The position numbers were made by a program, and so were the translations under genes. The notes under the pieces are model-generated. The model made no database searches and was not told the DNA's origin. It saw only the letters and a list, made by a program, of their open reading frames with translations. From positions 2,921 through 66,920 of the forward strand of contig CAZUZW010000009.1 in the NCBI GenBank assembly GCA_964624855.1: a stretch of DNA of 64,000 bases, given 5' to 3'. Shown piece by piece: positions 2,558-19,927 of the stretch (position 1 is its first letter; the number at the start of each line of letters is the position of its first letter). The DNA is from an uncultured Vicinamibacteraceae bacterium (GTDB lineage: Bacteria > Acidobacteriota > Vicinamibacteria > Vicinamibacterales > UBA8438).

Positions 2558-3574
2558 TTACTGTAGAGAAAAATAGGCGATTCGTTCCCCGCGATGAGTC
2601 CCAAGCCAGAGTTCATTTCCAATCTGAATGGCCGTCGTTGATGCTACGAATCCTTCAATAGGAGCGTGCTGAAAGACCTGTTCAAGCTCCAATGTATCAG
2701 GGTTCATCTTTACGACGTTCGATGTTTCGTTCAACGGCTCTCGCGGTGTCTGGATATTTCCTGGACCCGCTACAAAAATAACCGAACCATCGAGAGACAT
2801 CCTCAGATTGTCGGGGTTAAATCCTAATTCTATGACCTCTTTTTGAACCGGCGTCTGACCTCGTGATAGTCGTGTCAGTTTTGCTTCGCTGAAACCAGCA
2901 ATATACAGCCAGTGCCCGTCTGCTGAGACCTCAAGCCCGTTGGGTGTGGTGTCTTCACTTCCTGGCACACGCGTCCATCCCGTACGAATTTCCCATTCCC
3001 ATACGTCGCCTGTTCTTGGACTCGTTGCAACAAGGCCACCATCAGGAAGACCGACTACACCATTGAACGCTTGAGGACCAGGGGCAATGACGCATCCTAC
3101 CCAAGTCAAAGTTGGGGTTGTTGCGACCTGCACATCAAAGATCTCAATCGATTCTCGGCTACCGTGGTGCACGACGTACAAGGTATGAATATCGCCTTGC
3201 CCAGGTTTTAGATAGAGGCCATGGGCTCTGAAGTTATTCCCGTCGGCGGAAGTGAGTGGTCCGGGGCATGTCGGATACGTCTCGGAATCGAATCGCTCAT
3301 CAGTTTTTGCCGTTGGAATGAGCACTGTTGCGTTTTTGCTTTGGACGTTAACCAAGTGAATCCGCCCTCCCTCTCGATTGCCAGAAGCGATCACCCATTC
3401 TGAACCTGGAATTACAGCCAGATCTTCAGGGCTAATTAGATTGCAAATGAAATGAACAGTTCCAACGGCTTCACCACAGGGAAGGCCACTTGGTGCCACT
3501 GTTGGATTCTGTGCTGCAATTCCTAGCGGAATGAACAGTCCAAAGAACCAACCTAGATACGTTAGTGACTTCAT
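2558..3574 (-). CDS. Secreted six-bladed beta-propeller protein, SMP-30/paraoxonase-like lactonase/arylesterase family
   Basis: Signal peptide MKSLTYLGWFFGLFIPLGIAAQN. The repeated blade motifs (HTLYVVHHGSRESIEIFDV, PNGLEVSADGHWLYIAG, PDNLRMSLDGSVIFVAG) resemble PON/SMP-30 propellers. The start is taken at the second Met of the ORF. Confidence 0.5.
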   Translation of the reverse strand: MKSLTYLGWFFGLFIPLGIAAQNPTVAPSGLPCGEAVGTVHFICNLISPEDLAVIPGSEWVIASGNREGGRIHLVNVQSKNATVLIPTAKTDERFDSETYPTCPGPLTSADGNNFRAHGLYLKPGQGDIHTLYVVHHGSRESIEIFDVQVATTPTLTWVGCVIAPGPQAFNGVVGLPDGGLVATSPRTGDVWEWEIRTGWTRVPGSEDTTPNGLEVSADGHWLYIAGFSEAKLTRLSRGQTPVQKEVIELGFNPDNLRMSLDGSVIFVAGPGNIQTPREPLNETSNVVKMNPDTLELEQVFQHAPIEGFVASTTAIQIGNELWLGTHRGERIAYFSLQ

Positions 3575-3658
3575 CAAGGCACCCTCCATTATGGAAGCCG
3601 TTATGCTGTTACGTTGACGAGCTAAGTAAATCTAGCCTAGTGTGGGCGGTCCATTAGT

Positions 3659-4429
3659 TCAAGTCGCTAACGGGGGTGAGGAGAACTCTCGTAGTATCAG
3701 CCAGCGAACATCGATTGCAAATGAGTAAGTGAGTAGCAACAGTGCTCCCGCAGCCACGCCGACTGCGATGTTGGTCGGAATCACTGGTCCCAGACATACC
3801 AGCAGTGCGATGCTCTCCACCACACAAACTGTCTTGCGGCGGCGACTGGGCGGTAGTTCTGCGGCTAGCGGTGACCAGAGCCACCCCGCGAACACAAACA
3901 CATAACGAAACGCGCCGATTCCGATAACCCAAGGACCAACCTTTCCCGTCTGCCAGACCAGAATCGACAGCGCCAACATCAGGAAGGCGTCGAGTTCCAT
4001 ATCAAAACGAGCACCGAAGGTCGTGTTTGTACGGGTACGCCTGGCGACCATTCCATCAATGCCGTCGAGTATCAAGGCGATCGTCGACAGGGCGATAGTC
4101 CACCAGTAGACCTCGTTCTTAAAAGGCGAGGATTCAAAGAGCAGTGCTGATACTGCGAATATCAAGGTGCTCCGAGTAAGAGTCACCCGGTTGGCGACTC
4201 CGAATTCTCGGCCGGCTTCGCTTCCCTGAAAAACCCTTAAGACTAGTGCTGTCAACACGATGTACTGGAATCCAGCGAGAACGAGATAAGCGTTTGACAG
4301 GTCAAAGACTAAGGTCGTCGTGATAACTACAGTTATGAGAGATATTGAGCCAACTGCCAGATCCAGCGGTAATCGGTGGTCCAGCGTTGCCACCCTTCGA
4401 ATCGACTTATTGTGGCGGAGACTGGTCAT
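3659..4429 (-). CDS. CDP-alcohol phosphatidyltransferase family membrane protein
   Basis: Perfect family signature DG(x2)AR(x8)G(x3)D(x3)D in DGMVARRTRTNTTFGARFDMELD. The protein is multi-TM and hydrophobic. Confidence 0.85.
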   Translation of the reverse strand: MTSLRHNKSIRRVATLDHRLPLDLAVGSISLITVVITTTLVFDLSNAYLVLAGFQYIVLTALVLRVFQGSEAGREFGVANRVTLTRSTLIFAVSALLFESSPFKNEVYWWTIALSTIALILDGIDGMVARRTRTNTTFGARFDMELDAFLMLALSILVWQTGKVGPWVIGIGAFRYVFVFAGWLWSPLAAELPPSRRRKTVCVVESIALLVCLGPVIPTNIAVGVAAGALLLLTYSFAIDVRWLILREFSSPPLAT

Positions 4430-4463
4430 GGGTTAAGGTCCGTGTCCTAGCATCAACGACGGT

Positions 4464-5474
4464 ATGTCGAATACTACGACGAGTCGACAGTTTTGGATCC
4501 AGTCAATCGGTCACGGCGAGATTGTGCATGCCGAATTGCCGATGAGGCGAACGAATGAAGTGCTCGTACGTACACTTTACTCGGGAATCAGTCGCGGTAC
4601 TGAGTCATTAGTTTTTAGAGGTCAAGTGCCTCCATCGCAATTTCAGTCGATGCGAGCTCCATTTCAGGAAGGTGAATTTCCAGCCCCGATCAAGTATGGC
4701 TATATCAATGTTGGCGTCGTTGAAGCCGGACCAGAGTCGTTGGTTGGAGAAGTTGTGTTTTGTCTTTACCCACATCAAGACCTCTATTGTGTTCCTGAGA
4801 GTGCGGTCACTTCTGTGCCAAAGGACGTGCCAGCGGAGCGTGCGGTGCTTGCCGCCTATATGCAGACGGCCATCAACGCCGTCTGGGATGGGCACCCGTC
4901 CGTTGGTGACCAAGTTGTTGTGGTTGGAGCGGGTGCAGTTGGTCTTCTTGTCGCTTGGTTATGTCGTCAAATTCCAGGCGTAGAAGTTACGGTGGTCGAT
5001 ACCAATGATTCTCGGCAGTCTATCGCAAGAAACTTGGAGTTGCGATTTGTCACAGATTTACCGTCCGGAACACAAGCGGACGTTGTTGTTCACGCGAGTG
5101 GCCAACCTGCAGGTTTGGTGACCGCGTTGTCCGTTGCGGGTGTGGAATCAACCATTGTGGATGTAAGTTGGTATGGAGCTAACACAGTTGATCTGCCGCT
5201 TGGTGAGGCTTTTCATTCGAAGCGACTCACCATTCGGAGTAGTCAAGTGTCGCTCATTCCGCCGCTGCAGAATCCGAGATGGGATTTTGATCGAAGATCT
5301 TTACTGGCTCTCACATTGCTTCGTGATCCGGCGTTGGAGTGTTTGATTACCGGCGAGAGTCAGTTTGAAGACCTGCCTAATGTGTTAGCTGCATTAAGCA
5401 TGAGTTCATCGGACACTTTGTGCCATCGAATCACATATCCGAGCCCTTTAGGAGCTAAACCGTGTATAGCGTAA
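4464..5474 (+). CDS. Medium-chain dehydrogenase/reductase, BchC-like (zinc-type alcohol dehydrogenase fold)
   Basis: GISRGTE motif in place of the GHE/Cys zinc motif, as in BchC-like MDRs. Rossmann motif [14 protein letters not shown]. 336 aa. Confidence 0.7.
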
Positions 5475-5860
5475 CCGTGCGTGACCATTTCATGATTGCC
5501 CATAGTTTTCGTGGGGATACCTTCGGCCCAGCCCAGCGACTTCATGGTGCGACGTTTGTCGTCGATGCAACATTTCGTAGACCAGAATTGGACGAGGACG
5601 GAGTTGTTGTCGACATTGGGTTGGCCACTGCTCAATTGAAGTCAGCATTGGAAGATTTGAACTATACAAATTTGGACGAAGATCCAACTTTTGCCGGCAA
5701 GAACACCACTACAGAAGTGCTGGCCCGTTTTGTTTTTGATCGACTGGCTAAGGCAGTTCGCGTTGGCGATCTTGGTGAACGCGGCCGTGGTATGACAGCG
5801 ATTTGCGTTACGTTACGAGAATCTCATCTGGCGTGGGGTAGTTACGAAGGGTCGGTGTGA
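5462..5860 (+). CDS. 6-pyruvoyl-tetrahydropterin synthase / QueD (COG0720) family protein, atypical active site
   Basis: 132 aa. Contains FMIAHSF, LHGATF (canonical LHGHxY) and the C-terminal [14 protein letters not shown] block typical of PTPS/QueD. GTG start overlaps the upstream stop by 13 nt. Confidence 0.75.
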
Positions 5861-6918
5861 AACCGAAACAACTCCATGTGGTCGTCCCTGGACCGATCAA
5901 CCAACGGACAGGTGGTTATCTATACGACTCTCGAATCGTGGATGGTCTCAGGTGCTTGGAGTGGTCTGTGGTCGTTCACGAGTTGTCTGGAATATTTCCT
6001 GGACCTGACAGAGAAGCGCGAGACAGTTTGACTCGTGTTTTGGAGAATTTGCCAGCTCACTCTTGTGTTGTGATTGACGGCTTGGCAATGGGAGGATTGC
6101 CAGAGCCGTTGCAGTTACATAGAACACGGCTTACCCTAGTCGGGTTGGTCCACCACCCGTTAGCTGACGAGACTGGACTAGACACAGCACGGCGCCTGCG
6201 ATTGGCCGAATTGGAACAGGCGGCGCTTTCGTTTTGTCGCCGTGTGGTGGTAACTAGCCCGACCACTGCCCTTCGTCTTACCGACTACGGCGTGTCATCT
6301 GAACGAGTGTCTGTTGTATGTCCAGGGACCGATCCGGCCCCGGAGGCGGTAGGGCCGGATGATACTGGGAGTCCTCAGATCCTGTGTGTAGCAACTCTTG
6401 TTCCCCGCAAGGGTCACGATGTTCTCATTCGTTCGTTATCAACCCTTCGCGAGATTTCGTGGAACTGCGTTTGTGTGGGTAGTCTGGTCCGTAACCCCGA
6501 CTATGCACAGGCCGTGCAGCAACAAACAGCCGCGGCAGGCCTTACGGACAGAATACGGTTCGTCGGGGAATCTGATTCCCGGGTGCTTGACGACTTCTAC
6601 CACTCGAGTTCGGTGTTTGTCCTTCCGTCCTACGATGAGGGTTACGGCATGGTCCTTACAGAGGCACTGGTACGCGGACTTCCGATTGTTAGCACGACGG
6701 CTGGGGCAATTCCTGAGACGGTGTCACAGGATGCAGCTATTCTGGTTCCGCCTGGTGACGACCAGTTATTAGGCGCGGCACTTTCTAGCCTTCTAACAGA
6801 TAGGGCTCATTGTCTTCGTTTAGCGAAAGCCGCGAGAAAATACGGTGCCGCTTTACCGGACTGGAGTCAGGCGGCGCGACAATTTGACGAGGTGCTCTCG
6901 GAGTTGTTTGCGACGTGA
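5857..6918 (+). CDS. GT4-family (GT-B) glycosyltransferase
   Basis: EX7E motif in [26 protein letters not shown] start/stop overlap with the upstream gene. Confidence 0.8.
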
Positions 6919-7733
6919 CGAAAGCTAATGACTGGGAGTCGTTTGACAATGAGTGGCTGGCGCTGCGTGAACCGGTTGACCACAAAGCACGGTCGGAGAC
7001 CTTACTACCTATTATGGCAGCTGCAGCGCGGACTGGAGGTTGGTCCCGAGTCGTTGATTTGGCTAGTGGCACCGGATCGAATCTGAGATATCTTGCGCCG
7101 CACCTTCCGAAGCCAATGCGGTGGACGCTGATCGATCATGACGAGGGACTTCTTCGATGTGTGAAGAAGCCGGATCGAGTGCAGAGCGTGGCTAGTCTCT
7201 GTGGGGATATTGCCACAGATGGTATCGCGTCGGTTGCTGATGCCGATCTCGTCACTGGGGCCGCATTGCTTGATTTGGTATCGGAAACGTGGCTACGAAC
7301 CTTGGCAGAAGCATGTCGGTCTGCGGAATGTGGTGTCCTCTTTGCTCTTACGTACAACGGTTGTATTGAGTGGGACAGTTTCGATTGTGGTGACGCCATG
7401 GTTCAAGATGCAGTTAATAGGCATCAAAGTAGAGATAAAGGGCTTGGTCCAGCGTTGGGCCCCTTGGCGGGCGATGTTGCGCAGGCGTGCTTTCGTGAAA
7501 TTGGCTATCGGGTTTGGTGTCGTCCTAGTCCCTGGCAACTTGGTAATGAACACAGTGTTCTCGCGTCTTCGCTCGTAGACGGATGGGAGCAGGCGGCCAC
7601 CGAGGAACTGCCTAAACAAGAGGCAACCATTGCGGCTTGGGCCGGTCGGCGCCGGCATGATTTAACGAGGCGTGATGTGGGCCTAACGGTTGGTCACGTC
7701 GACCTGCTTGCGCTGCCGATGGACCTTATATGA
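6915..7733 (+). CDS. Class I SAM-dependent methyltransferase
   Basis: SAM motif I VVDLASGTGSNLRYL. GTGA overlap with the upstream GT gene. Confidence 0.65.
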   Translation: MTKANDWESFDNEWLALREPVDHKARSETLLPIMAAAARTGGWSRVVDLASGTGSNLRYLAPHLPKPMRWTLIDHDEGLLRCVKKPDRVQSVASLCGDIATDGIASVADADLVTGAALLDLVSETWLRTLAEACRSAECGVLFALTYNGCIEWDSFDCGDAMVQDAVNRHQSRDKGLGPALGPLAGDVAQACFREIGYRVWCRPSPWQLGNEHSVLASSLVDGWEQAATEELPKQEATIAAWAGRRRHDLTRRDVGLTVGHVDLLALPMDLI

Positions 7734-8671
7734 CCTGGCGCGTGTTGTCCGGCTTTCGTTTTTGGATAATTCGTTTGTGTGTCAGCTTCGCGGTGATGGT
7801 TGCACTAGCAGTGTGGCTAGATGTTGGGGAGGTCGCGAACCGCTTGGGGCGGATGCAGCCGGCTTGGGTGAGTGCAGCATTGCTCCTGTCTCTTGTACAA
7901 GTTTTAGTTTCGGCATGGCGATGGAGATTTACAGCGGGTTGTCTTGGGATCGACTTGCCCTTTTCTGTGGCCGTGCAGGAATACTACCTAGCCATGTTTC
8001 TCAATCAAGTAATTCCGGGAGGAGTGGTTGGAGATGTGTCACGGGCGTGGCGGCACGCCCGCTCCCAAGTCGTATTTACGGCCGCCCGTGGACCAGCGGT
8101 TCGAGCTGTGATCCTTGAACGGGCATCGGGTCAGGTGGTCATGGGCATTGTCGCAGGATTGTCGGTCTTGTTTTTACCGCTTGGAATTGGTCTGCAGTGG
8201 AAATTTGGAATCGGCGCAACTGTTATTGGCGTTATCGGTGTCGGTAGCTGGACATTGAAACGGTACGGTCAAGACGGTTCGGTGATGGGGTCCCTCATAA
8301 GAGATGCCCGAACCGCTCTGTTTACACAAAAGACTTTTCCCTTGCAGTTTGTGGTTTCTGTCGTGGTGGTGTCGACCTATGTAGTAACTTTCGTTATAGC
8401 TGCCAAAACCATTGGAATTGAAACACCCTTCTTCGTGTTGCTTCCTCTGGTGTCCCCAGTGTTGGTCACGATGGTGATTCCGGTCACTATTGCGGGTTGG
8501 GGTGTGCGCGAGGGATTTGCTGCGATATTGTGGGGGAGCGTTGGGCTAGCACCGGTCGATGGGGTGGCCATTTCGGTTGCCTATGGACTCCTTGTCTTAC
8601 TATCGACGCTGCCAGGTAGTATCGTGTTGGCAATGGGCGCAAAGACGACACACTTTCAGGCGCCTGATTAG
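7730..8671 (+). CDS. Flippase-like / lysylphosphatidylglycerol-synthase TM-region family (UPF0104) membrane protein
   Basis: Polytopic protein with LVSAWRWRF and FLNQVIPGGVVGDVSRAWR blocks characteristic of this family. ATGA overlap with the upstream gene. Confidence 0.6.
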   Translation: MTWRVLSGFRFWIIRLCVSFAVMVALAVWLDVGEVANRLGRMQPAWVSAALLLSLVQVLVSAWRWRFTAGCLGIDLPFSVAVQEYYLAMFLNQVIPGGVVGDVSRAWRHARSQVVFTAARGPAVRAVILERASGQVVMGIVAGLSVLFLPLGIGLQWKFGIGATVIGVIGVGSWTLKRYGQDGSVMGSLIRDARTALFTQKTFPLQFVVSVVVVSTYVVTFVIAAKTIGIETPFFVLLPLVSPVLVTMVIPVTIAGWGVREGFAAILWGSVGLAPVDGVAISVAYGLLVLLSTLPGSIVLAMGAKTTHFQAPD

Positions 8672-8678
8672 GCGAGCG

Positions 8679-9554
8679 TTAAGTGTTTGTCTCCGTCTTG
8701 ATCTTGCTCAGATCGAAATCGAACAAGAGATCGTTTCCGAGACGAAAAAGCTGATATTCAGGACGTAAGGCTTTTTCGAGTGAACTGATCGGGTCCAATC
8801 TGAAAGCCGCGACTCCAGAACCAATTATTAGCGGTGCAATTGTTACGTGGAGACGCTCAAGGACCTGAGCCTGAAGAAAACTGGACACTGTTACTCCGCC
8901 TCCTTCGATAAGCACGCGGTTAAGGCCTCGTCCACGTAGCGCTTCGACTACGGTGGACGGTTTAAAGTGCCCTTCTCTGTTAACAGGTAGAGTCACTACT
9001 GAGACATTACGGTTTTGCTGGTCGATCTTTGTAGGGGTAGCCTCGCGACAAACGTGTAGAGTGGGTACTTCAGCGTCCGAGAATACGTGCTTGTCTGGCG
9101 TCAGTCGACCAGTGGGGTCCAGGATAACGCGGACGGGGCTTTCTCCTGGAACCTTTCTAACTGTCAAACGGGGGTCGTCTGCGGCGACCGTTGTGGCGCC
9201 GACAACCACGGCATCAACCAAAGCACGAAGACGGTGTAAGTGAATGATATCGGCGGGTCCTGTAATAAAATGAGACTTTCCCGTTTCGGTTGCTATTCGA
9301 CCATCAAGACTCTGTCCGATCTGGGCCATGGTAAATGTAGCCTGAATTTGGAGTGGCAGATACAGGTCGAGCAAGACCTTGGCCTCGGGCGTTGGTGTTG
9401 CCGAGGTCGTCCAATGCCCGGCAGGTGTGACTTGCAACCAGACGTCTGGACTGGGATCATTGGGTAGGTGGATTCGGGGTTGACCCTCGCTTAGTCCTTG
9501 AGGTGTGGCACGGACCAAATTCCATGCGGTCTGTTCGTCTATGGGGCTAGTCAA
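8679..9554 (-). CDS. RibD C-terminal-domain reductase (dihydrofolate-reductase-like fold), no deaminase domain
   Basis: MAQIGQSLDGRIATETGKSHFITGPADIIHLHRLRALVDAVVVGATTVAADDPRLTVR and LIEGGGVTVSSFL match the RibD_C pyrimidine reductase pattern. About 70 aa of N-terminal extension with no cytidine-deaminase zinc motif. Confidence 0.75.
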   Translation of the reverse strand: MTSPIDEQTAWNLVRATPQGLSEGQPRIHLPNDPSPDVWLQVTPAGHWTTSATPTPEAKVLLDLYLPLQIQATFTMAQIGQSLDGRIATETGKSHFITGPADIIHLHRLRALVDAVVVGATTVAADDPRLTVRKVPGESPVRVILDPTGRLTPDKHVFSDAEVPTLHVCREATPTKIDQQNRNVSVVTLPVNREGHFKPSTVVEALRGRGLNRVLIEGGGVTVSSFLQAQVLERLHVTIAPLIIGSGVAAFRLDPISSLEKALRPEYQLFRLGNDLLFDFDLSKIKTETNT

Positions 9555-9573
9555 GGTAAACTCCTATTGTTGA

Positions 9574-10719
9574 TTGGCTGACAGTATGCACGAAGCGGAA
9601 CGTGGATTGTTCGATCTCCAGAGAGGACGTCCCCTTTGCGTCAGAGCGTTGGGGGACGACGGCGACGCGTGTACGGTGTTGTTGGCTACTGTCGAAGGCT
9701 TAAGTCCTAAAAATTTAAAACAAATTCAGGACATCGGTGATGGGCGAATTTGCTTAGTGGTGACGGGATATCGTGCTGAAGCCATGGGGCTGACAAGCCC
9801 GGACCATGGTCGAGCTGCCGTAAGTTTAGCTCTCAGTGGTCCCGTGACTCCCGATGAGATTCTGAATCTTTCCAGTTCCACCGGTAATTACCGAATAGGT
9901 TCAGTTGATGTTCGTCAGGCATCTCCTCCTGAGGTTGGCGGTTTGACGATGGCGAGGTTGGGACGATTGATACCTGCGGTGGTTGCTGTAACGGTTGGTG
10001 AGTCGACTGCCAGCGATGTTCGAGAATTAGTGGATAGTGGGGCTGTGTTGTCGGTGACGACGTCACAGATTGATGCCATGGCAAGTGCCGTCCGTGTTGA
10101 GGTAACCCACGTCAGTGACGGCCCTGTTCCACTGCGAGAGGCGGAGAACGCCCGTTTTATGTCCTTTCGAGAAGCTAACGGCATTCTCGAGCACGTCGCC
10201 GTGATCATTGGCGATCGTAGCAACTGGCCTGACCCGATTCCCGTCCGAATTCATTCAGCTTGTCTCACCGGTGACTTATTTGGAAGTCTTCGCTGTGATT
10301 GCGGTGAGCAACTACAGGGAAGCCTTCGCGTTTTCAGTTCACGCGGCGGCGGGGTTCTCTTGTACTTGGCTCAGGAAGGTCGAGGTATTGGTCTAGGGAA
10401 CAAACTGCGCGCTTATGCTCTCCAGCAAGAGGGCCTGGACACGGTTGATGCCGATTGTATGCTAGGTTTTGGTGCTGATGAGCGGCGATACGACGCTGCT
10501 GTTGAGATGCTTCGTCACCTTGATGTTCGGCGCATTCAATTGCTAACAAACAATCCTGAAAAGGTTCGGGCCGTCCGCGAGAGTGGGATTGAAGTGGTCG
10601 AGCGAGAGGCACTGTATGGAACGCTCAATCCTCATAACCAGCGGTATGTGAAAGCGAAGGTTCAGCGGTCTGGGCACTGGTTGGGCGAGATGTTGTCTGG
10701 CGCAATTTCAGGGAAGTAG
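9574..10719 (+). CDS. ribA: GTP cyclohydrolase II with a degenerate RibB-like N-terminal domain
   Basis: The C-terminal half aligns by eye with E. coli RibA (RIHSACLTGDLFGSLRCDCGEQL, LAQEGRGIGLGNKLRAYALQQEGLDTVDA, LLTNNPEKV). The ORF opens with TTG at 9574 and the first ATG is at 9586. Confidence 0.85.
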   Translation: MADSMHEAERGLFDLQRGRPLCVRALGDDGDACTVLLATVEGLSPKNLKQIQDIGDGRICLVVTGYRAEAMGLTSPDHGRAAVSLALSGPVTPDEILNLSSSTGNYRIGSVDVRQASPPEVGGLTMARLGRLIPAVVAVTVGESTASDVRELVDSGAVLSVTTSQIDAMASAVRVEVTHVSDGPVPLREAENARFMSFREANGILEHVAVIIGDRSNWPDPIPVRIHSACLTGDLFGSLRCDCGEQLQGSLRVFSSRGGGVLLYLAQEGRGIGLGNKLRAYALQQEGLDTVDADCMLGFGADERRYDAAVEMLRHLDVRRIQLLTNNPEKVRAVRESGIEVVEREALYGTLNPHNQRYVKAKVQRSGHWLGEMLSGAISGK

Positions 10720-10725
10720 CTCTCG

Positions 10726-11547
10726 CTATTTCGTTCGATCGTCATTCATCAAGCGATCGAGTGGAAAATCTTTGGTGTCTCGAATGATTTCTGACAGCAT
10801 TCGTCCATAGCCATCCACCAAGTGTTTGCCGATGGACGCGGTGGCCAGTGTCGAGTTGCCAGCGACACCAGAGGAATGCAGGTCTTCTGCCAACCACGCC
10901 AGTGACGCGCCTTCGTTGCTCGTGTCGACATGATTAAGTGTGTGCTCTAAAAGTTTTCCCAGTGATGGTGTATCGGGCAGTTGCTGCGTTCGGACTAAAT
11001 CAGGCCTGAGATGCAACATCATTGCGGTCTCAACGGCTCCTCCGTGAAGTCCATGGCGCCATTCAGCATCGGGGAGCGTTACGCCCTCTGGTCGCGGCAA
11101 GAGGAAGTAGTTGCTTTTGATGACCAGTAGGCCTAGTTCCCGTCGAAGTCGTAGTGCCGCGGCATCTATTGCTTGACGGTTGCCCCCATGGCTGTTGGTT
11201 ACAAGGAGACGTTGAATACCTGATCGCGTGAGCGCTTTTCCTTGGGCCCAAATTAAGTCGCCCAGTAGGTTGGCGTCGATACTGAGGGTTCCAGGAAAAG
11301 TCAGATGTTCTGCACTAGTTCCAACGACTTGGGCTGGTAGGACCCATACTGGGAAGTGCGACGGTAGATATGTGAATGCTTTGTCTAGAATGCCTATGCC
11401 AATGTCGAGGTCGGTGGACAGTGGTAGGTGTGGGCCATGTTGTTCAATAGCAGCTATTGGAAGAATCACAACCGGGTCAGCCTGGCTGATATCCTGGGCT
11501 TCTGCGGTGGTCATTGATTGCCATGAATGGTCTAACAACTCAGTCAT
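10726..11547 (-). CDS. Creatininase-family amidohydrolase (creatinine amidohydrolase / ArfB / MftE fold)
   Basis: AIEQHGPHLPLSTDLDIG and VTNSHGGN motifs. The start is taken at the internal Met (MTELLDH) so that it does not overlap the upstream gene ending at 11559. Confidence 0.8.
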   Translation of the reverse strand: MTELLDHSWQSMTTAEAQDISQADPVVILPIAAIEQHGPHLPLSTDLDIGIGILDKAFTYLPSHFPVWVLPAQVVGTSAEHLTFPGTLSIDANLLGDLIWAQGKALTRSGIQRLLVTNSHGGNRQAIDAAALRLRRELGLLVIKSNYFLLPRPEGVTLPDAEWRHGLHGGAVETAMMLHLRPDLVRTQQLPDTPSLGKLLEHTLNHVDTSNEGASLAWLAEDLHSSGVAGNSTLATASIGKHLVDGYGRMLSEIIRDTKDFPLDRLMNDDRTK

Positions 11548-11558
11548 CGCATAACACT

Positions 11559-12416
11559 CTATCCGACTCGCTGAAACACGGCGAGTTCGTATCGAACCCA
11601 ACCTTTTGAGAGACAGACTTGAAGAGCATTTCCTCCCAACAGATAATCGAATCGATCGGCTACCGTTGGAATCCAGCCAAACAAGTAAATCCCGAGCGCG
11701 ATCAACCTGTCTCGAGGACGACCAATTTCAAGATGCGGCGTAAGATCGACAGTTTCTAGATGCTCAAAACCTTGGCTAGCGGCTAAGTTTCGAAAATCGA
11801 TTGGATTCATGAGCGAGTTGATGTGCCATCCCCGACAAAATTTTTCTACGACCCGCTGGCCGGTTGCACTGTCGTTAGAACCCCTGAAATCGTCACACAC
11901 CACTAGTAGACCACCGGTGCGGACCTGACTGGCGCACTGCCGAAAGAAGCGTGTTGGGTCCGGGGTGTGTACAAACGACTCAATGGCGTAGGCCAGATCG
12001 GCTACGTCGCAGTCTTTCGGTAGATTACAGTAGTCGCCTTCAATACATCGGATCCGGTCGGACAGACCTAAGCGGGAGATATGTTGTTGGGCTGCGCGGG
12101 CCTGGACAGGGCTTAGTGTGATTCCAGTGCCGCGGATATTTAAACGCTCAGCTAGGGTGCATAGACTAGAACCAACTCCGCAACCGAGGTCGATTACGTG
12201 GGGTTGGCTCAGAGTGTTCGTTTCGGTCAAAGTGCCAAGCCGGTCCCCTATCTGATGTTCCACATAGCGAAACGCATCTTCGCGATTATGGATTCCTGGG
12301 CCCCAGACCGCTCGATGGATCGCGCCAAGAGGTCCTCCTTGACCACGGGTCACGAATTCTGGCGTGTGGCGGTCGTAGTAGCTCCTGACCTCTTTAAGGT
12401 TAAAACGAGCAGACAT
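11559..12416 (-). CDS. Class I SAM-dependent methyltransferase
   Basis: Motif I VIDLGCGVGSSLCTLA. The overall pattern resembles small-molecule or lipid C/O-methyltransferases. Confidence 0.75.
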   Translation of the reverse strand: MSARFNLKEVRSYYDRHTPEFVTRGQGGPLGAIHRAVWGPGIHNREDAFRYVEHQIGDRLGTLTETNTLSQPHVIDLGCGVGSSLCTLAERLNIRGTGITLSPVQARAAQQHISRLGLSDRIRCIEGDYCNLPKDCDVADLAYAIESFVHTPDPTRFFRQCASQVRTGGLLVVCDDFRGSNDSATGQRVVEKFCRGWHINSLMNPIDFRNLAASQGFEHLETVDLTPHLEIGRPRDRLIALGIYLFGWIPTVADRFDYLLGGNALQVCLSKGWVRYELAVFQRVG

Positions 12417-12610
12417 GTTCTTCTGATTTTGGCGATATCGGTGCTTCGCAGTCCAGGTAAAGTTTCTTGATCACAGGCGGAAGGTGCCCGTTAGGTGAAA
12501 ATCTTTCTGTAAGGTGTCGTAATCTGCATTCTGTTGCGCGACGAGTGCAGCTACAATGTCGGTAGGCATTTGTTGGGTCGATAAAATTCCACACCGTGAA
12601 AAGAGGGTCC

Positions 12611-13045
12611 ATGAAGGTTGGGTTGCGAGGACTATCAGTTCTGCTGGGTGTGTTTTTGATTCTCATGGGTTGGGGAAAAACAGCCTGGTTCTCGGATGAA
12701 GGAATCCTTCTGGCTCAGTTGGACGGGTGGTTGGGATCGGCGCCGGCGTTAAGTCGATGGTACCTCGAGACTGTGGCTATTCCAGGCGCAAGCCTGTTTG
12801 CGTATCTGGTGCCCCTAGGAGAACTGGCCGCGGGTGCAGCGTTCATCCTTGGCCACCGTGTCCAATTAGCTGCGACACTCGCACTTCTCATGATAATCAA
12901 CTTTCACTTTGCCATGGGTATCATATTTACCTTTGGATACTTGACTAATGGTTACGGTCTACCAGTGCTTGGCGGTTTGTTCGCACTTGCCGTAGGTGGA
13001 GCAGGTCTACCATTTAGTGTTCCTGGGAGAAGAAGAAAAGCATGA
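12611..13045 (+). CDS. DoxX-like small integral membrane protein
   Basis: Four predicted TM helices. The N-terminus GLSVLLGVFLILMGWGKT resembles the DoxX family. ATG at 12611 is preceded by AGAGGG. Confidence 0.45.
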   Translation: MKVGLRGLSVLLGVFLILMGWGKTAWFSDEGILLAQLDGWLGSAPALSRWYLETVAIPGASLFAYLVPLGELAAGAAFILGHRVQLAATLALLMIINFHFAMGIIFTFGYLTNGYGLPVLGGLFALAVGGAGLPFSVPGRRRKA

Positions 13046-14631
13046 AACCTTTGGCAGGGGTTTGGTTGGTCGTGGGGTTGCTCTTGCTCAACCTGTCAGT
13101 GACTTTTACCAATATTTGGCCGACCTTCGGCATCCGAGTGACGAATGAACTTTCAGCCGAACTGGCGGTCTTGGTAATGGCCTTGATGATTACATGGCGT
13201 TGGAGAGCAACTCGGTCAGTCGTGGCTTTACGAGTTATGTCTGCGTTCTGGGTTGTTCTGGTTCTCGGCCGTTATGCGGAAGTCACGGCTCGGTCACTGT
13301 ACGGGCGCGACATAAATTTATTTTGGGACCTCCAACATATTCCTAATGTGGGTGCGATGTTTTCGGCAGTGGCTGATCCTTTCTTGCGGGTCGGTTTTAT
13401 TGCCGCCCTGCTATTCGTGCCCGCCGTACTTTATGTCGTGGTGAGATGGGCACTGGCATGTGTAGTCTCGGCGGCACCTTCTTTGGGGCCGCGTCTCGTT
13501 CTGAGTGTCTGTGCGGGTGTCGTGCTTCTTGTCGCTGTTGCGCAGAACGTTGGTGCCAGAGTGCCAGAGAGGATTCAGGTGGCCGCTCCGGTTACGTCAG
13601 CTTATTTGGAAGAACTGAGTGAACTGGTTTATGAAATGACCGGTGCTGGTGTACGGTCGTTGGCCCCACCGGTCTCACTGCAGTCAAATTTGTCAGGAGT
13701 GTCCGGGGCCGATGTGTTCCTTATTTTTCTTGAATCGTACGGTACGGTGAGTTGGGATCGCACTGAATTTGTTAGTGACCTTGCCGACAGCCGCGAGCAG
13801 TTTGCTTCTGACATCACGGACACGGGACGTACGGTGGTGTCTGGTCGCGTTGAATCAACAACCTTTGGCGGTGAATCGTGGCTGGCTCATATCAGCCTAC
13901 TTTCTGGTACGGAAGTTCGTGACCCTGGAACTAACAAGCGACTAATGGCACAGGACCGTGACACGTTGGTCAAGGTATTTGGACGCCATGGATATCGAAC
14001 GGTTGCCGTTATGCCTGGAATACAGCGTTCTTGGCCGCAGGGGGAGTTTTATGGGTTTGATGAAATTTACGACCTTGCTCGTTTGGATTATCGTGGGCCT
14101 CCGTTCGGATGGTGGGATCTGAACGACCAGTTTGCCTTAGCGCGAATTGACTCACTTGAGATAGCCCAAGAAGCCCGTCGACCGACGTTTGTGTTTTTCC
14201 CGACAGTGACCACACACGCACCGTTTGTTCCAACGCCTCCCTATCAGCCAGACTGGACTCGGTTGTTGGGTGACAGCCCTTACGATCAAGTTGAGCTAGA
14301 TCGTTCTTGGGCGGATTATCCAGACTGGTTAAATTTGGGGCCGAGTTACGTCAAGTCGTTAGGTTATGCGTACAAAACGATAGGTGGATACCTGCGATTG
14401 CGTGCTGATAGAGATCTTGTTCTGATATTAATCGGGGACCATCAGCCTCCGGCGTTGGTCAGCGGTGAAGGAGCGTCGTGGGACGTACCGGTCCATGTCG
14501 TCACTACTCGCTTGGGATTACTTGACAATCTCAAGCAGCACGGCTTCGTTGATGGCCTGTCACCGGATTCTTCAACCCTTGCACGAATGGACACGCTATT
14601 GCCGCTTCTCCTGGATGTCTTTGACATTTGA
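13042..14631 (+). CDS. Membrane-anchored sulfatase-fold transferase (LTA synthase / phosphoglycerol- or phosphoethanolamine-transferase-like)
   Basis: About 5 N-terminal TM helices followed by a soluble domain beginning ADVFLIFLESYG, typical of LtaS/sulfatase-like enzymes. ATGA overlap with the DoxX-like gene. Confidence 0.5.
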   Translation: MKPLAGVWLVVGLLLLNLSVTFTNIWPTFGIRVTNELSAELAVLVMALMITWRWRATRSVVALRVMSAFWVVLVLGRYAEVTARSLYGRDINLFWDLQHIPNVGAMFSAVADPFLRVGFIAALLFVPAVLYVVVRWALACVVSAAPSLGPRLVLSVCAGVVLLVAVAQNVGARVPERIQVAAPVTSAYLEELSELVYEMTGAGVRSLAPPVSLQSNLSGVSGADVFLIFLESYGTVSWDRTEFVSDLADSREQFASDITDTGRTVVSGRVESTTFGGESWLAHISLLSGTEVRDPGTNKRLMAQDRDTLVKVFGRHGYRTVAVMPGIQRSWPQGEFYGFDEIYDLARLDYRGPPFGWWDLNDQFALARIDSLEIAQEARRPTFVFFPTVTTHAPFVPTPPYQPDWTRLLGDSPYDQVELDRSWADYPDWLNLGPSYVKSLGYAYKTIGGYLRLRADRDLVLILIGDHQPPALVSGEGASWDVPVHVVTTRLGLLDNLKQHGFVDGLSPDSSTLARMDTLLPLLLDVFDI

Positions 14632-14714
14632 CTAACAATGAACATGACCGCAGCTGAGTGTCGTCGGAGATCCTGATATGACTTCGGGTCAGAATCTTGG
14701 AAACTAGGTTCCGC

Positions 14715-16868: not shown

Positions 16869-16875
16869 AAAATTC

Positions 16876-17670
16876 CTAGTGGTGTTCCGATCGGAATTGT
16901 TCAATAAAGGTGTCGTCTTGACGGCCAACCAATGCTCGCCGATAGAACTCAAGGGCGAGTAAATTTTCGGCATCTTCATCCTGAAGATGGGCTAACGCAT
17001 TGTGCCGTATCTGCGACACATGGCACTTGATGGCTGCCAGTTTCTGTCTTGCATAATGACCACTGTTGATCACGAGGGTAGGAGGTGACGCCATGGAACC
17101 AAATGCGTCTACATCTGTGACACCAAAGATCTGAGAAGGTGCGCCGCCTGACGAGCTAGTCGTTTCTGTGACACGATTGAGTGCAGAACGCATACTTCCG
17201 ACCGGAAGTGTGACGTAGTAGAGCGCTGGAGCATTTCTACCCAACTTGTCTATGACTGCCGTTGTATGTTGATGGACTGCGATGTGATCGGGATGCCAGT
17301 AGAGTCCATCTTCGCCAAATGTGATTACCACGTCAGGTTGCCACTGCTTGATGGCGTGTCTAATGTCAAATTCGATTTGACTACTGTTACTCCATGACAG
17401 CATTCCGTCTTCGTAATCGAGGACAGACACATTTTTAATACCAAGGACGCTTGCTGCATCGTGTAGTTCTTTTTCACGTGTCTTTCCTAAGGTTGATGAA
17501 TCTCCAGGTCCGTGCTGACCTCGGGTCATACAAAGAAGTGAGATGGTAACTTCGAGTTCAGCACACCAGGCGATCAGCCCTCCAGAGGCTAAGGATTCAT
17601 CGTCCGGGTGGGCGAAGATCGCGAGAATGGCGTTTTGGCTTGTTTCCTTGGAATAAGAGCGCTCGAGCAT
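16876..17670 (-). CDS. PIG-L / LmbE-family N-acetylglucosaminyl deacetylase
   Basis: AHPDDESL zinc motif near the N-terminus, plus HPDH downstream. Confidence 0.85.
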   Translation of the reverse strand: MLERSYSKETSQNAILAIFAHPDDESLASGGLIAWCAELEVTISLLCMTRGQHGPGDSSTLGKTREKELHDAASVLGIKNVSVLDYEDGMLSWSNSSQIEFDIRHAIKQWQPDVVITFGEDGLYWHPDHIAVHQHTTAVIDKLGRNAPALYYVTLPVGSMRSALNRVTETTSSSGGAPSQIFGVTDVDAFGSMASPPTLVINSGHYARQKLAAIKCHVSQIRHNALAHLQDEDAENLLALEFYRRALVGRQDDTFIEQFRSEHH

Positions 17671-17671
17671 A

Positions 17672-19866: not shown

Positions 19867-19927
19867 ATTCCAATAGAAGCTAATGCCGAACCGGTTACCG
19901 TTCGTTTAACCGGCTCAAGACCAGTGG

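What the first reader, a model, noticed from the sequence alone, without database searches (positions are those of the whole stretch)
3659..12416. Compact 10-gene cluster joining GTP-derived pyrimidine/pterin enzymes to phospholipid and glycosyl transfer: best candidate for an undescribed pathway
**Seen in sequence.** Ten contiguous genes have almost no spacer between them. They encode:
- a CDP-alcohol phosphatidyltransferase with a perfect DG(x2)AR(x8)G(x3)D(x3)D motif;
- a BchC-like MDR dehydrogenase;
- a PTPS/QueD-family protein;
- a GT4 glycosyltransferase;
- a SAM methyltransferase;
- a flippase-like UPF0104 membrane protein;
- a reductase-only RibD_C protein;
- GTP cyclohydrolase II;
- a creatininase-fold amidohydrolase;
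- a second methyltransferase.

The five plus-strand genes 4464-8671 are linked by GTGA/ATGA or 13-nt overlaps, which implies translational coupling.

**Established knowledge.** GCH II, RibD_C and the creatininase fold (ArfB) act on ribosylamino-pyrimidine intermediates. COG0720 enzymes act on dihydroneopterin-triphosphate-type substrates. CDP-alcohol phosphatidyltransferases build phosphodiester-linked head groups.

**Inference.** The cluster probably makes a methylated, glycosylated pyrimidine- or pterin-like moiety that is phosphodiester-linked to a lipid (or to a CDP-activated alcohol) and then translocated by the flippase-like protein. No lumazine or riboflavin synthase gene lies here, so this does not look like ordinary riboflavin synthesis. 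I have a vague memory of similar COG combinations clustering in some proteobacteria without an assigned product, but I cannot verify that here.
Basis: partly seen in the sequence, partly recalled or inferred. Interest (0 to 1): 0.85.

Follow-up and report, generated by a model that had tools for sequence, protein, structure and literature searches.

The report
Orphan GTP-to-membrane-lipid gene cluster
This is a real, tightly packed gene cluster found almost unchanged in at least five bacterial lineages; it joins enzymes that open up GTP to enzymes that build and move phospholipid head groups, and nobody knows what it makes.

Summary
All ten ORFs carry the predicted Pfam domains, and four overlapping start/stop junctions link the five plus-strand genes.

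The window comes from an uncultured Vicinamibacteraceae bacterium (Acidobacteriota).

**Core and accessories**
- The core is eight genes: CDP-alcohol phosphatidyltransferase, zinc-less MDR, PTPS-IV, GT4, methyltransferase, archaeal-type RibD_C reductase, GTP cyclohydrolase II and a creatininase-fold hydrolase.
- This core keeps the same order and strands in Acidobacteriota, Gemmatimonadota and Gammaproteobacteria. It also sits on alphaproteobacterial plasmids and, without RibD_C, in Streptomyces.
- The flippase-like gene and the second methyltransferase are accessories.

**Prior knowledge.** The cluster is not wholly undescribed:
- The PTPS is about 66% identical to the crystallised, function-unknown SCO6650 (PDB 3D7J) and carries the PTPS-IV "FGPAQ" signature.
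- The Streptomyces cluster holds the GCH II paralogue SCO6655.

No product is known.

**New here**
- A membrane-anchored LtaS/EptA/MCR-1-like transferase (13042-14631) belongs to the cluster in about half the loci.
- Periplasmic glucan genes (opgG, opgH) lie beside it in three independent arrangements.

**Best reading (unproven).** A GTP-derived, glycosylated and methylated pyrimidine- or pterin-like head group is built on a phospholipid and passed to envelope glycans. It is not housekeeping riboflavin synthesis.

The parts
3659..4429 (-). CDP-alcohol phosphatidyltransferase of a divergent subfamily (core gene)
   Evidence: PF01066 at 6.5e-17. Complete D-x2-DG-x2-AR-x8-G-x3-D-x3-D motif at residues 122-147. 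Best NCBIfam and PDB matches are all far below cut-off. Found next to the MDR gene in 58 of 60 Acidobacteriota/Gemmatimonadota/Gammaproteobacteria loci with enough flank.
4464..5474 (+). Zinc-less MDR oxidoreductase, BchC- and polyol-dehydrogenase-like (core gene)
   Evidence: Weak PF00107; best NCBIfam hit BchC at 54.9 bits. AF2 model (pLDDT 74) matches RspB, xylitol, idonate and sorbitol dehydrogenases at TM about 0.68. The usual Cys and His-Glu zinc ligands are replaced by invariant SRGTE and KYGY. At least 8000 close homologues were found, and one (P0009) is fused to PTPS.
5462..5860 (+). PTPS-IV (COG0720 T-fold protein; SCO6650 orthologue; core gene)
   Evidence: PF01242 at 5e-25. E = 1.8e-54 to PDB 3D7J, SCO6650. 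Carries the FGPAQ signature (PMC5445326). The CxxxHGH motif is replaced by AQRLHGA. Overlaps the MDR gene by 13 nt.
5857..6918 (+). GT4 glycosyltransferase (core gene)
   Evidence: PF00534 at 2e-32. Nearest solved relatives are sucrose-phosphate synthase, MshA, PimB' and BshA. GTGA overlap with the PTPS gene.
6915..7733 (+). Divergent class I SAM methyltransferase, MT1 (core gene)
   Evidence: Weak PF13649. The family alignment shows the VLDLGSGTGSN motif and an invariant HQxRDKGxGPAxGP motif. No specific PDB relative. GTGA overlap with the GT4 gene.
7730..8671 (+). LPG_synthase_TM (UPF0104) flippase-like membrane protein; accessory, present in roughly 40% of loci
   Evidence: PF03706 at 6e-34. 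ATGA overlap with MT1. Present in 10/33 Acidobacteriota, 9/13 Gemmatimonadota and 7/14 Gammaproteobacteria loci, and in Streptomyces and Agrobacterium.
8679..9554 (-). Reductase-only RibD_C protein of the archaeal/fungal DARP-reductase type, with a 73-residue N-terminal extension (core, but absent in Streptomyces)
   Evidence: PF01872 at 8e-40; TIGR00227 at 142 bits. Best PDB hits are 6P8C (1.5e-30) and 2AZN (1.9e-21), both 2,5-diamino-6-ribosylamino-pyrimidinone 5'-phosphate reductases.
9574..10719 (+). GTP cyclohydrolase II, long form with a degenerate N-terminal domain (core gene)
   Evidence: PF00925 at 4.5e-54; NF006456 at 320 bits. The Cys zinc ligands and the Tyr aligned with E. coli RibA Tyr105 are kept in all 35 cluster copies. 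The Streptomyces orthologue has Met at that position.
10726..11547 (-). Creatininase-fold amidohydrolase, candidate formamide hydrolase (core in most lineages)
   Evidence: PF02633 at 1e-57. Creatininase structures match at 2e-12. Called as 273 aa on L001. The same fold provides ArfB (from memory) and the bacterial formamidase BrbF (PMC9478397).
11559..12416 (-). Second class I SAM methyltransferase, MT2; accessory, mostly Acidobacteriota
   Evidence: PF08241 and PF13649 at 4e-14. Found in 19/33 Acidobacteriota, 2/13 Gemmatimonadota and 0/14 Gammaproteobacteria loci. Other lineages carry an FkbM-type methyltransferase instead.
12596..13045 (+). DoxX-like small membrane protein; accessory, translationally coupled to the next gene
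   Evidence: PF07681 at 4.6e-4, just below its cut-off. Co-located in 14/33 Acidobacteriota loci. 4-nt overlap with the 13042 gene.
13042..14631 (+). Membrane-anchored alkaline-phosphatase-superfamily protein, LtaS/EptA/MCR-1-like; probable phospho-head-group transferase (frequent accessory)
   Evidence: PF00884 at 32.4 bits, above its 25-bit cut-off. AF2 model (pLDDT 75) has N-terminal helices and a C-terminal domain; Foldseek hits are PbgA, full-length MCR-1, LtaS, EptC, GacH and BcsG. This family or its paralogue occurs in 46 of 88 sequences held.

Best explanation
The region is one conserved biosynthetic unit with two halves that work together.

**Soluble half**
1. GTP cyclohydrolase II opens GTP to a 2,5-diamino-6-ribosylamino-pyrimidinone 5'-phosphate, or to its 5-formyl form.
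2. The creatininase-fold hydrolase removes the formyl group where needed.
3. The archaeal-type RibD_C reductase turns the ribosyl chain into a ribityl chain without deamination.
4. The coupled pair of zinc-less MDR oxidoreductase and PTPS-IV then modifies this still guanine-like (2-amino-4-oxo) intermediate. PTPS-IV is a T-fold protein that should bind such a ring but lacks PTPS catalytic residues. One option is oxidation at C2' followed by ring closure to a dihydropterin.
5. GT4 adds a sugar, and MT1 (plus MT2 or an FkbM-type enzyme) adds methyl groups.

**Membrane half**
1. The CDP-alcohol phosphatidyltransferase joins the product to a phosphatidyl group through a phosphodiester. No cytidylyltransferase is encoded, so the donor is presumably CDP-diacylglycerol.
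2. The MprF-type flippase-like protein moves the lipid outwards where it is present.
3. The LtaS/EptA-like transferase hands the phospho-head group to an envelope glycan. In many lineages this is probably the osmoregulated periplasmic glucan.

**What is shown and what is inferred**
- Shown here: the domain families, the gene coupling, the cross-phylum synteny, the fold of the transferase and the opgGH adjacency.
- Shown elsewhere, and recalled from memory: the Streptomyces GCH II orthologue makes the formyl intermediate, and SCO6650 lacks PTPS activity.
- Inferred: every substrate, the order of steps and the final acceptor.
For: **One unit**
- Four start/stop overlaps join MDR, PTPS, GT4, MT1 and the flippase-like gene.
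- The order and strand pattern CDPOH- MDR+ PTPS+ GT4+ MT1+ (LPGTM+) RibDC- GCH2+ Creat- recurs in 35 loci.
- The core is present in 33 of 33 Acidobacteriota, 13 of 13 Gemmatimonadota and 11 of 14 Gammaproteobacteria loci with enough flank.
- It is also present in Streptomyces and on Agrobacterium and Methylosinus plasmids.
- An MDR-PTPS fusion protein exists.

**Soluble half**
- RibD_C is closest to archaeal DARP reductases.
- Creatininase-fold formamidases act on exactly this intermediate in bacteria (PMC9478397).
- The Streptomyces orthologue of the GCH II has Met at the position aligned with RibA Tyr105 and is paired with the creatininase gene.
- PTPS-IV keeps the C-terminal Glu but lacks the Cys and His of CxxxHGH.
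- The MDR has a polyol-dehydrogenase fold.

**Membrane half**
- The CDP-alcohol motif is complete.
- PF03706 matches at 6e-34.
- The model of the 13042-14631 protein matches MCR-1, LtaS, EptC, GacH and BcsG, which transfer head groups from phospholipids to extracytoplasmic acceptors.
- opgG (PF04349, 2e-170) lies beside the cluster in 17 loci and opgH in 11, in three different arrangements across four lineages.
Against: - No product, substrate or activity was measured for any protein of this cluster.
- All cluster GCH II copies outside Streptomyces keep the Tyr that (from memory) allows self-deformylation, so the creatininase gene may do something else. Agrobacterium lacks it.
- Streptomyces lacks RibD_C and the LtaS-like gene, so those steps are not universal.
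- The flippase-like gene is missing from more than half of the loci.
- This window has no opgGH.
- The LtaS-like assignment rests on a medium-confidence model with modest TM-scores of 0.3-0.5.
- Sequence-level searches found no PDB relative and no similarity to E. coli OpgB.
- CDP-alcohol transferases can also join two soluble molecules.
- A published remark links PTPS-IV to archaeal F420 synthesis (PMC5041015).
Confidence: 0.42

Rival explanations
1. The cluster makes a soluble, glycosylated and methylated pterin-, lumazine- or deazaflavin-like cofactor or signal, not a lipid. The CDP-alcohol transferase forms a phosphodiester between two water-soluble parts, as di-myo-inositol-phosphate synthase does. 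The UPF0104 protein exports the product to the periplasm.
For: - PTPS-IV is said to take part in archaeal F420 synthesis, cited as unpublished in PMC5041015.
- GT4's nearest solved relatives include enzymes with soluble phospho-polyol or acid acceptors: sucrose-phosphate synthase, MshA and BshA.
- Cytochrome b561 (18 loci) and DoxX genes beside the cluster hint at a redox-active product.
- Glycosylated and methylated redox cofactors exist; mycofactocin is one (from memory).
Against: - No cytidylyltransferase that could make a CDP-activated soluble alcohol is encoded in the cluster.
- The LtaS/EptA-like transferase family uses membrane lipids as donors.
- No FO or F420 genes (CofC, D, E, G, H) lie in any of the loci examined.
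- Halomonas and Agrobacterium are not known F420 producers (from memory).
Confidence: 0.25
2. Two unrelated modules lie side by side. One is an archaeal-type early riboflavin/F420 precursor branch (GCH II, formamidase, reductase, perhaps PTPS-IV as the missing deaminase). The other is an ordinary phospholipid or glycolipid module.
For: - GCH II, the creatininase-fold hydrolase and the DARP reductase together mirror the ArfA/ArfB/ArfC steps (PMC9478397).
- A creatininase-fold formamidase is essential for riboflavin synthesis in Sinorhizobium and Brucella (PMC9478397).
Against: - The modules are interleaved and translationally coupled: PTPS to GT4 to MT1 to the flippase-like gene.
- They stay together across phyla and on plasmids.
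- Methylosinus keeps MDR-PTPS-GT4-MT1-RibD together next to mdoH, without the GCH II.
- No lumazine or riboflavin synthase, deaminase or FMN riboswitch is nearby.
- From memory, Streptomyces has other ribA copies, so the cluster there would be an additional set.
Confidence: 0.1
3. The cluster is a secondary-metabolite cluster for a GTP-derived toxin or antibiotic of the toxoflavin or pyrimidine-nucleoside type, with membrane proteins for export or self-protection.
For: - Toxoflavin synthesis also starts with GCH II and a RibD homologue and ends with methyltransferases (from memory).
- The cluster occurs on plasmids.
Against: - The proteins are very conserved: 53-70% identity for the MDR and 57-78% for the PTPS across phyla.
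- The cluster is present in very many Streptomyces species and in most Vicinamibacterales MAGs retrieved.
- No ToxC- or ToxD-like, NRPS, PKS or regulator genes are conserved with it.
- The links to opgGH and an LtaS-like transferase point to the cell envelope.
Confidence: 0.08

Closest known systems
Streptomyces coelicolor SCO6650-SCO6655 neighbourhood (SCO6650 = PDB 3D7J; SCO6655 = GCH II paralogue)
   Same: - The cluster is orthologous: CDP-alcohol transferase(-), MDR, PTPS, GT4, MT1, LPG_synthase_TM, creatininase(-) and GCH II lie in the same relative order.
- The PTPS proteins are 66% identical and match at E = 1.8e-54.
   Different: - Streptomyces has no RibD_C reductase and no LtaS-like, DoxX or MT2 genes in the locus.
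- Its GCH II is the short form, with Met where this window has Tyr.
- Function is unknown in both.
PTPS-IV subfamily of COG0720 (Phillips et al. 2012; Zallot et al. 2016, PMC5041015; AGeNNT, PMC5445326)
   Same: - The FGPAQ signature is present.
- The CxxxHGH motif is lost.
- The neighbourhood holds PF00925 and PF01872.
   Different: - The published neighbourhood did not include the CDP-alcohol transferase, GT4, flippase-like, LtaS-like or opgGH genes.
- The only functional remark is an unpublished link to archaeal F420, which this gene context does not support.
Archaeal early riboflavin/F420 route (ArfA GTP cyclohydrolase III, ArfB formamide hydrolase, ArfC reductase) and the bacterial BrbF formamidase
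   Same: - A creatininase-fold hydrolase sits next to a GTP cyclohydrolase.
- The reductase lacks a deaminase domain and is closest to archaeal DARP reductases (PMC9478397).
   Different: - The cyclohydrolase is GCH II, not GCH III, and keeps the Tyr.
- No downstream lumazine or riboflavin synthase gene is present.
- The genes are coupled to glycosyl, methyl and phosphatidyl transferases.
Phospholipid head-group donor systems: PgsA/PssA plus OpgB, OpgE, LtaS, EptA/MCR-1, GacH and BcsG
   Same: - A CDP-alcohol transferase makes a phospholipid.
- A membrane-anchored alkaline-phosphatase-fold enzyme could move its phospho-head group to a periplasmic glycan.
- opgGH lies adjacent.
   Different: - In the known systems the head groups are glycerol or ethanolamine from bulk lipids. 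Here a dedicated eight-gene pathway appears to make a special head group.
- The transferase has no sequence-level similarity to OpgB.
Phosphatidylinositol mannoside and mycothiol logic (PgsA1 + PimA/PimB'; MshA + MshB)
   Same: - A CDP-alcohol transferase is combined with a GT4 acting on a (phospho)polyol.
- A PIG-L deacetylase lies nearby at 16876-17670.
   Different: - No inositol-phosphate synthase is present.
- The polyol would be GTP-derived.
MprF (lysyl-phosphatidylglycerol synthase/flippase)
   Same: The PF03706 domain in MprF translocates a modified phospholipid (function from memory).
   Different: - It is a stand-alone domain here, with no aminoacyl-transferase domain.
- It is absent from many copies of the cluster.

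Membership tests
COG0720 PTPS-IV subfamily | PF01242 T-fold domain | tested here: met
   5.3e-25, 88 bits against a 22.4-bit cut-off.
COG0720 PTPS-IV subfamily | FGPAQ signature in place of CxxxHGH (PMC5445326) | tested here: met
   The sequence reads ...[15 protein letters not shown].... Aligned to QueD, Cys27 becomes Ala and His33 becomes Ala.
COG0720 PTPS-IV subfamily | Neighbourhood with PF00925 and PF01872 (PMC5445326) | tested here: met
   Both genes lie within 5 kb and recur across loci.
Canonical PTPS / QueD (PTPS-I, -II, -III) | Catalytic Cys (or Glu) plus a three-His zinc site | tested here: not met
   The Cys and the third His are replaced by Ala, and this holds across the 41 family members aligned.
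GTP cyclohydrolase II (RibA) | PF00925 domain with the Cys zinc ligands and the Tyr105 equivalent | tested here: met
   182.9 bits. The HSACLTGD...LRCDCG and LRAYAL motifs are present; Tyr is kept in 35 of 35 copies.
GTP cyclohydrolase II (RibA) | Product is DARP rather than the formyl intermediate | not testable with these tools
   This needs an enzyme assay. The Streptomyces orthologue has Met at the switch position.
Housekeeping bacterial riboflavin operon | RibD deaminase domain, lumazine synthase, riboflavin synthase and an FMN riboswitch | tested here: not met
   Only RibD_C is present. None of the other genes occurs in the 64 kb. Rfam finds only 6S RNA and one tRNA.
Archaeal-type DARP reductase (ArfC / Rib7 type) | Stand-alone RibD_C closest to enzymes that reduce before deamination | tested here: met
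   6P8C at 1.5e-30 and 2AZN at 1.9e-21. TIGR01508 scores 115 bits, below its 186-bit cut-off, so membership is at family level only.
Creatininase-fold formamide hydrolase (ArfB / BrbF) | PF02633 fold | tested here: met
   1.1e-57.
Creatininase-fold formamide hydrolase (ArfB / BrbF) | Deformylates 2-amino-5-formylamino-6-ribosylamino-pyrimidinone 5'-phosphate | not testable with these tools
   No ArfB or BrbF sequence or model was available. The best NCBIfam hit is MftE at 117 bits, below its 172-bit cut-off.
CDP-alcohol phosphatidyltransferase | D-x2-DG-x2-AR-x8-G-x3-D-x3-D motif in a polytopic membrane protein | tested here: met
   The motif lies at residues 122-147; PF01066 matches at 6.5e-17.
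CDP-alcohol phosphatidyltransferase | Membership of a named enzyme (PgsA, PssA, PIP synthase) | tested here: not met
   All equivalog models score 18-28 bits against cut-offs of 107-580 bits. PDB hits have E of 0.02 or worse.
LtaS / EptA / OpgB-type phospho-head-group transferases (for 13042-14631) | N-terminal transmembrane helices plus an extracytoplasmic alkaline-phosphatase-fold domain | tested here: met
   PF00884 scores 32.4 bits against a 25-bit cut-off. The AF2 model has helices over residues 3-205. Foldseek hits PbgA, full-length MCR-1, LtaS, EptC, GacH and BcsG at E 5e-7 to 1e-4.
LtaS / EptA / OpgB-type phospho-head-group transferases (for 13042-14631) | Sequence-level homology to a characterised member, and an identified nucleophile | tested here: inconclusive
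   No PDB hit by sequence or profile. hhalign against E. coli OpgB gives probability 0.6%. The conserved ESYG, GGxSW and GDHQP motifs were not mapped to catalytic sites.
MprF-type flippase domain | PF03706 domain | tested here: met
   6.2e-34 over nearly the full length. Flipping activity is not testable here.
Zinc-dependent MDR alcohol/polyol dehydrogenases | Catalytic zinc ligands (Cys, His-Glu) | tested here: not met
   These positions hold invariant SRGTE and KYGY. The fold is nevertheless MDR.

The most novel reading that the evidence does not exclude
Bacteria from several phyla make a previously unseen class of phospholipid. Its head group is a glycosylated, methylated ribityl-diaminopyrimidine or pterin derived from GTP by a GTP-cyclohydrolase-I-independent route. 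They use this lipid as a donor to decorate periplasmic glucans or other envelope glycans with a redox-active or UV-absorbing heterocycle.
Probability: 0.25. Interest if true: 0.9.

Novelty: new variant of a known kind. Interest (0 to 1): 0.72.

Why it matters
- **An old open question.** The cluster is very widespread. At least 8000 close MDR homologues were retrieved. It occurs in most Streptomyces and in abundant soil Acidobacteriota and Gemmatimonadota, halophilic Gammaproteobacteria and rhizobial plasmids. Two of its proteins were studied biochemically and structurally more than fifteen years ago without a function emerging.
- **Possible payoff.** Solving it would assign roles to the orphan PTPS-IV subfamily, a zinc-less MDR family, a divergent CDP-alcohol transferase family and a new branch of LtaS/EptA-like transferases.
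- **New chemistry.** It could reveal a new envelope modification and a second biological use of the first riboflavin intermediates.
- **A concrete starting point.** The opgGH and transferase links found here tell experimenters where to look for the product: lipid extracts and periplasmic glucans.

Tried and rejected
**Leads that gave nothing**
- Looking up the exact creatininase ORF (291 aa) in the contig index found nothing, because the ORF start is over-extended.
- Literature searches returned nothing relevant. They covered the enzyme combination, the SCO664x-665x locus tags and pterin- or lumazine-lipid terms.
- Spoonamore 2006, Spoonamore 2008 and Phillips 2012 are not held. What I say about them is from memory.
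- A profile of MT1 against the PDB gave only generic class I methyltransferases.
- The CDP-alcohol transferase against the PDB gave only marginal hits.
- Sequence and profile searches of the sulfatase-family protein against the PDB, and hhalign against E. coli OpgB, were negative. Only the fold search was informative.

**Readings rejected**
- Housekeeping riboflavin synthesis: no deaminase, lumazine synthase, riboflavin synthase or riboswitch, and the cluster has plasmid copies.
- A canonical pterin pathway: no GCH I, and the PTPS catalytic residues are missing.
- F420 synthesis: no cof or fbi genes in any locus.

**Artefacts set aside**
- Several recurrent 'families' in the neighbour clustering were antisense ORF artefacts of high-GC loci.
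- The Natrialbaceae and Phycisphaerales labels of L073, L048 and L077 are probably binning errors.

Full report
**1. The observation**

ORF listing and Pfam/NCBIfam scans confirm ten back-to-back genes between 3659 and 12416:
- a CDP-alcohol phosphatidyltransferase (PF01066, 6.5e-17) with a complete motif, DGIDGMVARRTRTNTTFGARFDMELD, at residues 122-147;
- an MDR-type oxidoreductase whose best named relative is BchC, but far below that model's cut-off;
- a PTPS/QueD-family protein (PF01242, 5e-25);
- a GT4 glycosyltransferase (PF00534, 2e-32);
- a weakly recognisable class I methyltransferase;
- an LPG_synthase_TM/UPF0104 protein (PF03706, 6e-34);
- a RibD_C-only protein (PF01872, 8e-40);
- a long-form GTP cyclohydrolase II (PF00925, 4.5e-54);
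- a creatininase-fold protein (PF02633, 1e-57);
- a second methyltransferase.

Two corrections apply. The creatininase gene probably starts at 11547 (273 aa, as called on the near-identical contig L001), so it does not overlap its neighbour. The unit also continues beyond 12416 (section 4).

**2. Source and synteny**

The MDR protein is encoded identically on metagenome contigs. It is 99% identical on a MAG labelled uncultured Vicinamibacteraceae (L004).

A scan of one genome per species returned 80 loci. I searched them with all window proteins. Among loci with enough flank:

| Lineage | Loci with the six core genes (CDP-alcohol transferase, MDR, PTPS, GT4, MT1, RibD_C) |
|---|---|
| Acidobacteriota | 32-33 of 33 |
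| Gemmatimonadota | 13 of 13 |
| Gammaproteobacteria (Halomonas, Thioalkalivibrio, Woeseiaceae, Competibacteraceae) | 11-13 of 14 |

- GCH II and the creatininase gene are present in most of these loci.
- The exact order and strand pattern of the window recurs in 35 loci.
- The flippase-like gene is present in only about 40% of loci.
- The second methyltransferase is essentially confined to Acidobacteriota. Other lineages carry an FkbM-type methyltransferase instead (49 loci).

The same cluster lies on plasmids of Agrobacterium tumefaciens, Methylosinus trichosporium OB3b, Rhizobium, Thiodictyon, Rhodobacteraceae, Arthrobacter, Microbacterium and Streptomyces.

The functional unit is an eight-gene core with lineage-specific accessories.

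**3. It is a 'known unknown'**

The PTPS protein matches PDB 3D7J, 'uncharacterized protein SCO6650' of Streptomyces coelicolor, at 1.8e-54. It carries the FGPAQ signature that defines the PTPS-IV subfamily of COG0720 (PMC5445326).

That paper already noted GCH II (PF00925) and RibD_C (PF01872) in the PTPS-IV neighbourhood. [quoted passage not shown]

Aligned to QueD, the catalytic Cys and one zinc-binding His are replaced by Ala. This fits my recollection that SCO6650 binds no zinc and has no PTPS activity.

I retrieved the Streptomyces locus through a protein 98% identical to SCO6650. It reads: CDP-alcohol transferase(-), MDR, PTPS, GT4, MT1, LPG_synthase_TM, creatininase(-), GCH II. It is orthologous to the window cluster but lacks RibD_C.

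Its GCH II is the short form and has Met at the position aligned with E. coli RibA Tyr105. From memory (Spoonamore et al. 2006), that switch makes SCO6655 release the 5-formyl intermediate instead of DARP. A 2026 review also states that one S. coelicolor RibA copy has a function unrelated to flavin synthesis (PMC13151069). All 35 non-Streptomyces cluster copies keep Tyr.

Full-text searches for the enzyme combination, the neighbouring SCO locus tags and pterin-lipid terms found no paper that assigns a product.

**4. What else belongs to the cluster**

De novo clustering of neighbouring ORFs shows four further recurrent partners:
- a polytopic sulfatase-family protein (46 of 88 sequences held; in the window at 13042-14631, translationally coupled to a DoxX-like gene at 12596-13045);
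- the FkbM-type methyltransferase;
- a cytochrome b561 (18 loci);
- the periplasmic glucan genes opgG (PF04349, 2e-170; 17 loci) and opgH (11 loci).

opgGH adjoins the cluster in three different arrangements:
- divergent from the sulfatase-family gene in Vicinamibacterales, Gemmatimonadota, Woeseiaceae and another gammaproteobacterium;
- directly downstream of the FkbM gene on the minus strand in Halomonas;
- as mdoH divergent from the MDR gene in Methylosinus.

Independent arrangements in separate lineages argue for a functional link rather than inherited adjacency.

The sulfatase-family protein has no relative detectable by sequence or profile in the PDB and no hhalign similarity to E. coli OpgB. 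An AlphaFold model (pLDDT 75) does find relatives by Foldseek: PbgA, full-length MCR-1, LtaS, EptC, GacH and BcsG (E 5e-7 to 1e-4). Apart from PbgA, these are membrane-anchored enzymes that transfer a phospho-alcohol head group from a phospholipid to an extracytoplasmic glycan or lipid.

This window itself has no opgGH. Downstream on the minus strand (15615-24451) lies an operon with a PIG-L deacetylase, two glycosyltransferases, an MsbA/NdvA-like ABC exporter and an 896-residue GT2.

**5. Individual enzymes**

- **RibD_C.** It is closest to archaeal-type 2,5-diamino-6-ribosylamino-pyrimidinone 5'-phosphate reductases (6P8C at 1.5e-30; 2AZN at 1.9e-21). It therefore probably reduces before any deamination, leaving the 2-amino-4-oxo ring that T-fold proteins bind.
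- **Creatininase fold.** This fold supplies the formamide hydrolases that act on the formyl intermediate: archaeal ArfB (from memory) and bacterial BrbF (PMC9478397).
- **MDR.** The model (pLDDT 74) matches polyol-dehydrogenase-type MDRs at TM about 0.68. The zinc ligands are replaced by invariant SRGTE and KYGY. A natural MDR-PTPS fusion exists.
- **GT4.** Its nearest solved relatives act on phospho-sugars, inositol phosphate, malate or phosphatidylinositol.
- **Cytidylyltransferase.** None is encoded, so the CDP donor is most simply CDP-diacylglycerol.

**6. Interpretation**

The best-supported model is a two-part pathway. GTP is opened and reduced to a ribityl-diaminopyrimidine phosphate. 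The MDR/PTPS-IV pair then tailors it; one option is oxidation at C2', which together with the earlier reduction amounts to a net Amadori step and would allow closure to a dihydropterin. The product is glycosylated and methylated, attached to a phosphatidyl group, flipped, and in many lineages donated by the LtaS/EptA-like enzyme to periplasmic glucans or other envelope glycans.

Shown:
- the domain identities;
- the gene coupling;
- the synteny;
- the fold of the transferase;
- the opgGH association.

Inferred:
- all substrates and the order of steps.

Weak points:
- The creatininase gene has an unexplained role where GCH II keeps Tyr, and it is absent in Agrobacterium.
- RibD_C and the transferase are absent in Streptomyces.
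- The flippase-like gene is patchy.
- The fold matches have only modest TM-scores.

Rivals, in order of weight:
- a soluble glycosylated cofactor or signal;
- two unrelated adjacent modules;
- a toxoflavin-like secondary metabolite.

**7. Not housekeeping riboflavin synthesis**

- There is no deaminase domain.
- No lumazine or riboflavin synthase gene occurs in the 64 kb.
- No FMN riboswitch is present.
- The cluster has plasmid-borne copies.
- From memory, Streptomyces carries the cluster in addition to other ribA genes.

I could not check whether this particular MAG has another riboflavin gene set.

**8. Verdict**

The feature is real, ancient or widely transferred, and still without a known product. 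It is not entirely new: PTPS-IV, SCO6650 and SCO6655 are in the literature. The additions made here are the full composition of the cluster, its spread across phyla, the LtaS/EptA-like transferase and the link to periplasmic glucan genes. Together they make the question directly testable.

Noticed in passing
window 15615-24451 (minus strand): An operon next to the cluster encodes six proteins:
- a 454-aa protein with a Trm112-like zinc ribbon;
- a PIG-L deacetylase;
- a GT4;
- a Glyco_trans_1_2 protein;
- an MsbA/NdvA-like ABC exporter;
- an 896-aa protein with a GH-like N-terminus and a processive GT2 (best hits MftF and PgaC).

It may be an exported glycan or glycolipid system. The 454-aa, PIG-L and Exo_endo_phos genes also sit beside the cluster in L041 and L051.
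   Followed up: partly
window 14697-15611 (+): An Exo_endo_phos family protein (the sphingomyelinase / inositol-phosphatase / YbhP type) lies directly after the LtaS-like gene. It recurs next to the cluster in two Gemmatimonadota loci and could be a head-group phosphodiesterase.
   Followed up: no
window 4429/4464 and 9554/9574: The divergent start codons are only 34 bp and 19-31 bp apart, and the same tight spacing is seen in other phyla. Either the promoters lie inside coding sequence or the starts are mis-set.
   Followed up: no
window 2558-3589 (-): A secreted 343-aa protein with a signal peptide and no Pfam match lies co-directional with the CDP-alcohol transferase, 69 bp downstream. It is found only in the closest relatives (L001-L005).
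   Followed up: partly
window 34560-37845 (+): Three tandem ORFs of about 353 aa each. The third is DUF481 (an outer-membrane beta-barrel family); the first two have no Pfam match. They may be paralogues.
   Followed up: no
window 47772-47956 (-) and 55292-55365 (-): A 6S RNA (76.6 bits) lies next to the RNase Y gene, and one tRNA lies next to thrS. The surrounding genes (pheST, infC, thrS) show that the window is chromosomal.
   Followed up: no
window 24529-26586 (-): A 685-aa PQQ-dependent dehydrogenase (PF01011, 7e-184). A PQQ-domain protein also lies upstream of the cluster on contig L002.
   Followed up: no
L073, L048, L077: Short contigs carrying the cluster are labelled Natrialbaceae archaeon and Phycisphaerales. 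Their proteins resemble the Halomonas and Competibacter versions, so these are probably binning errors rather than archaeal or planctomycete occurrences.
   Followed up: no
L044, L054, L057, L058, L076 (Competibacter / Contendobacter): Only sulfatase-family(+), CDP-alcohol transferase(-) and MDR(+) lie together here. PTPS, GT4 and MT1 do not follow the MDR gene, so the cluster appears to be split in these genomes.
   Followed up: no
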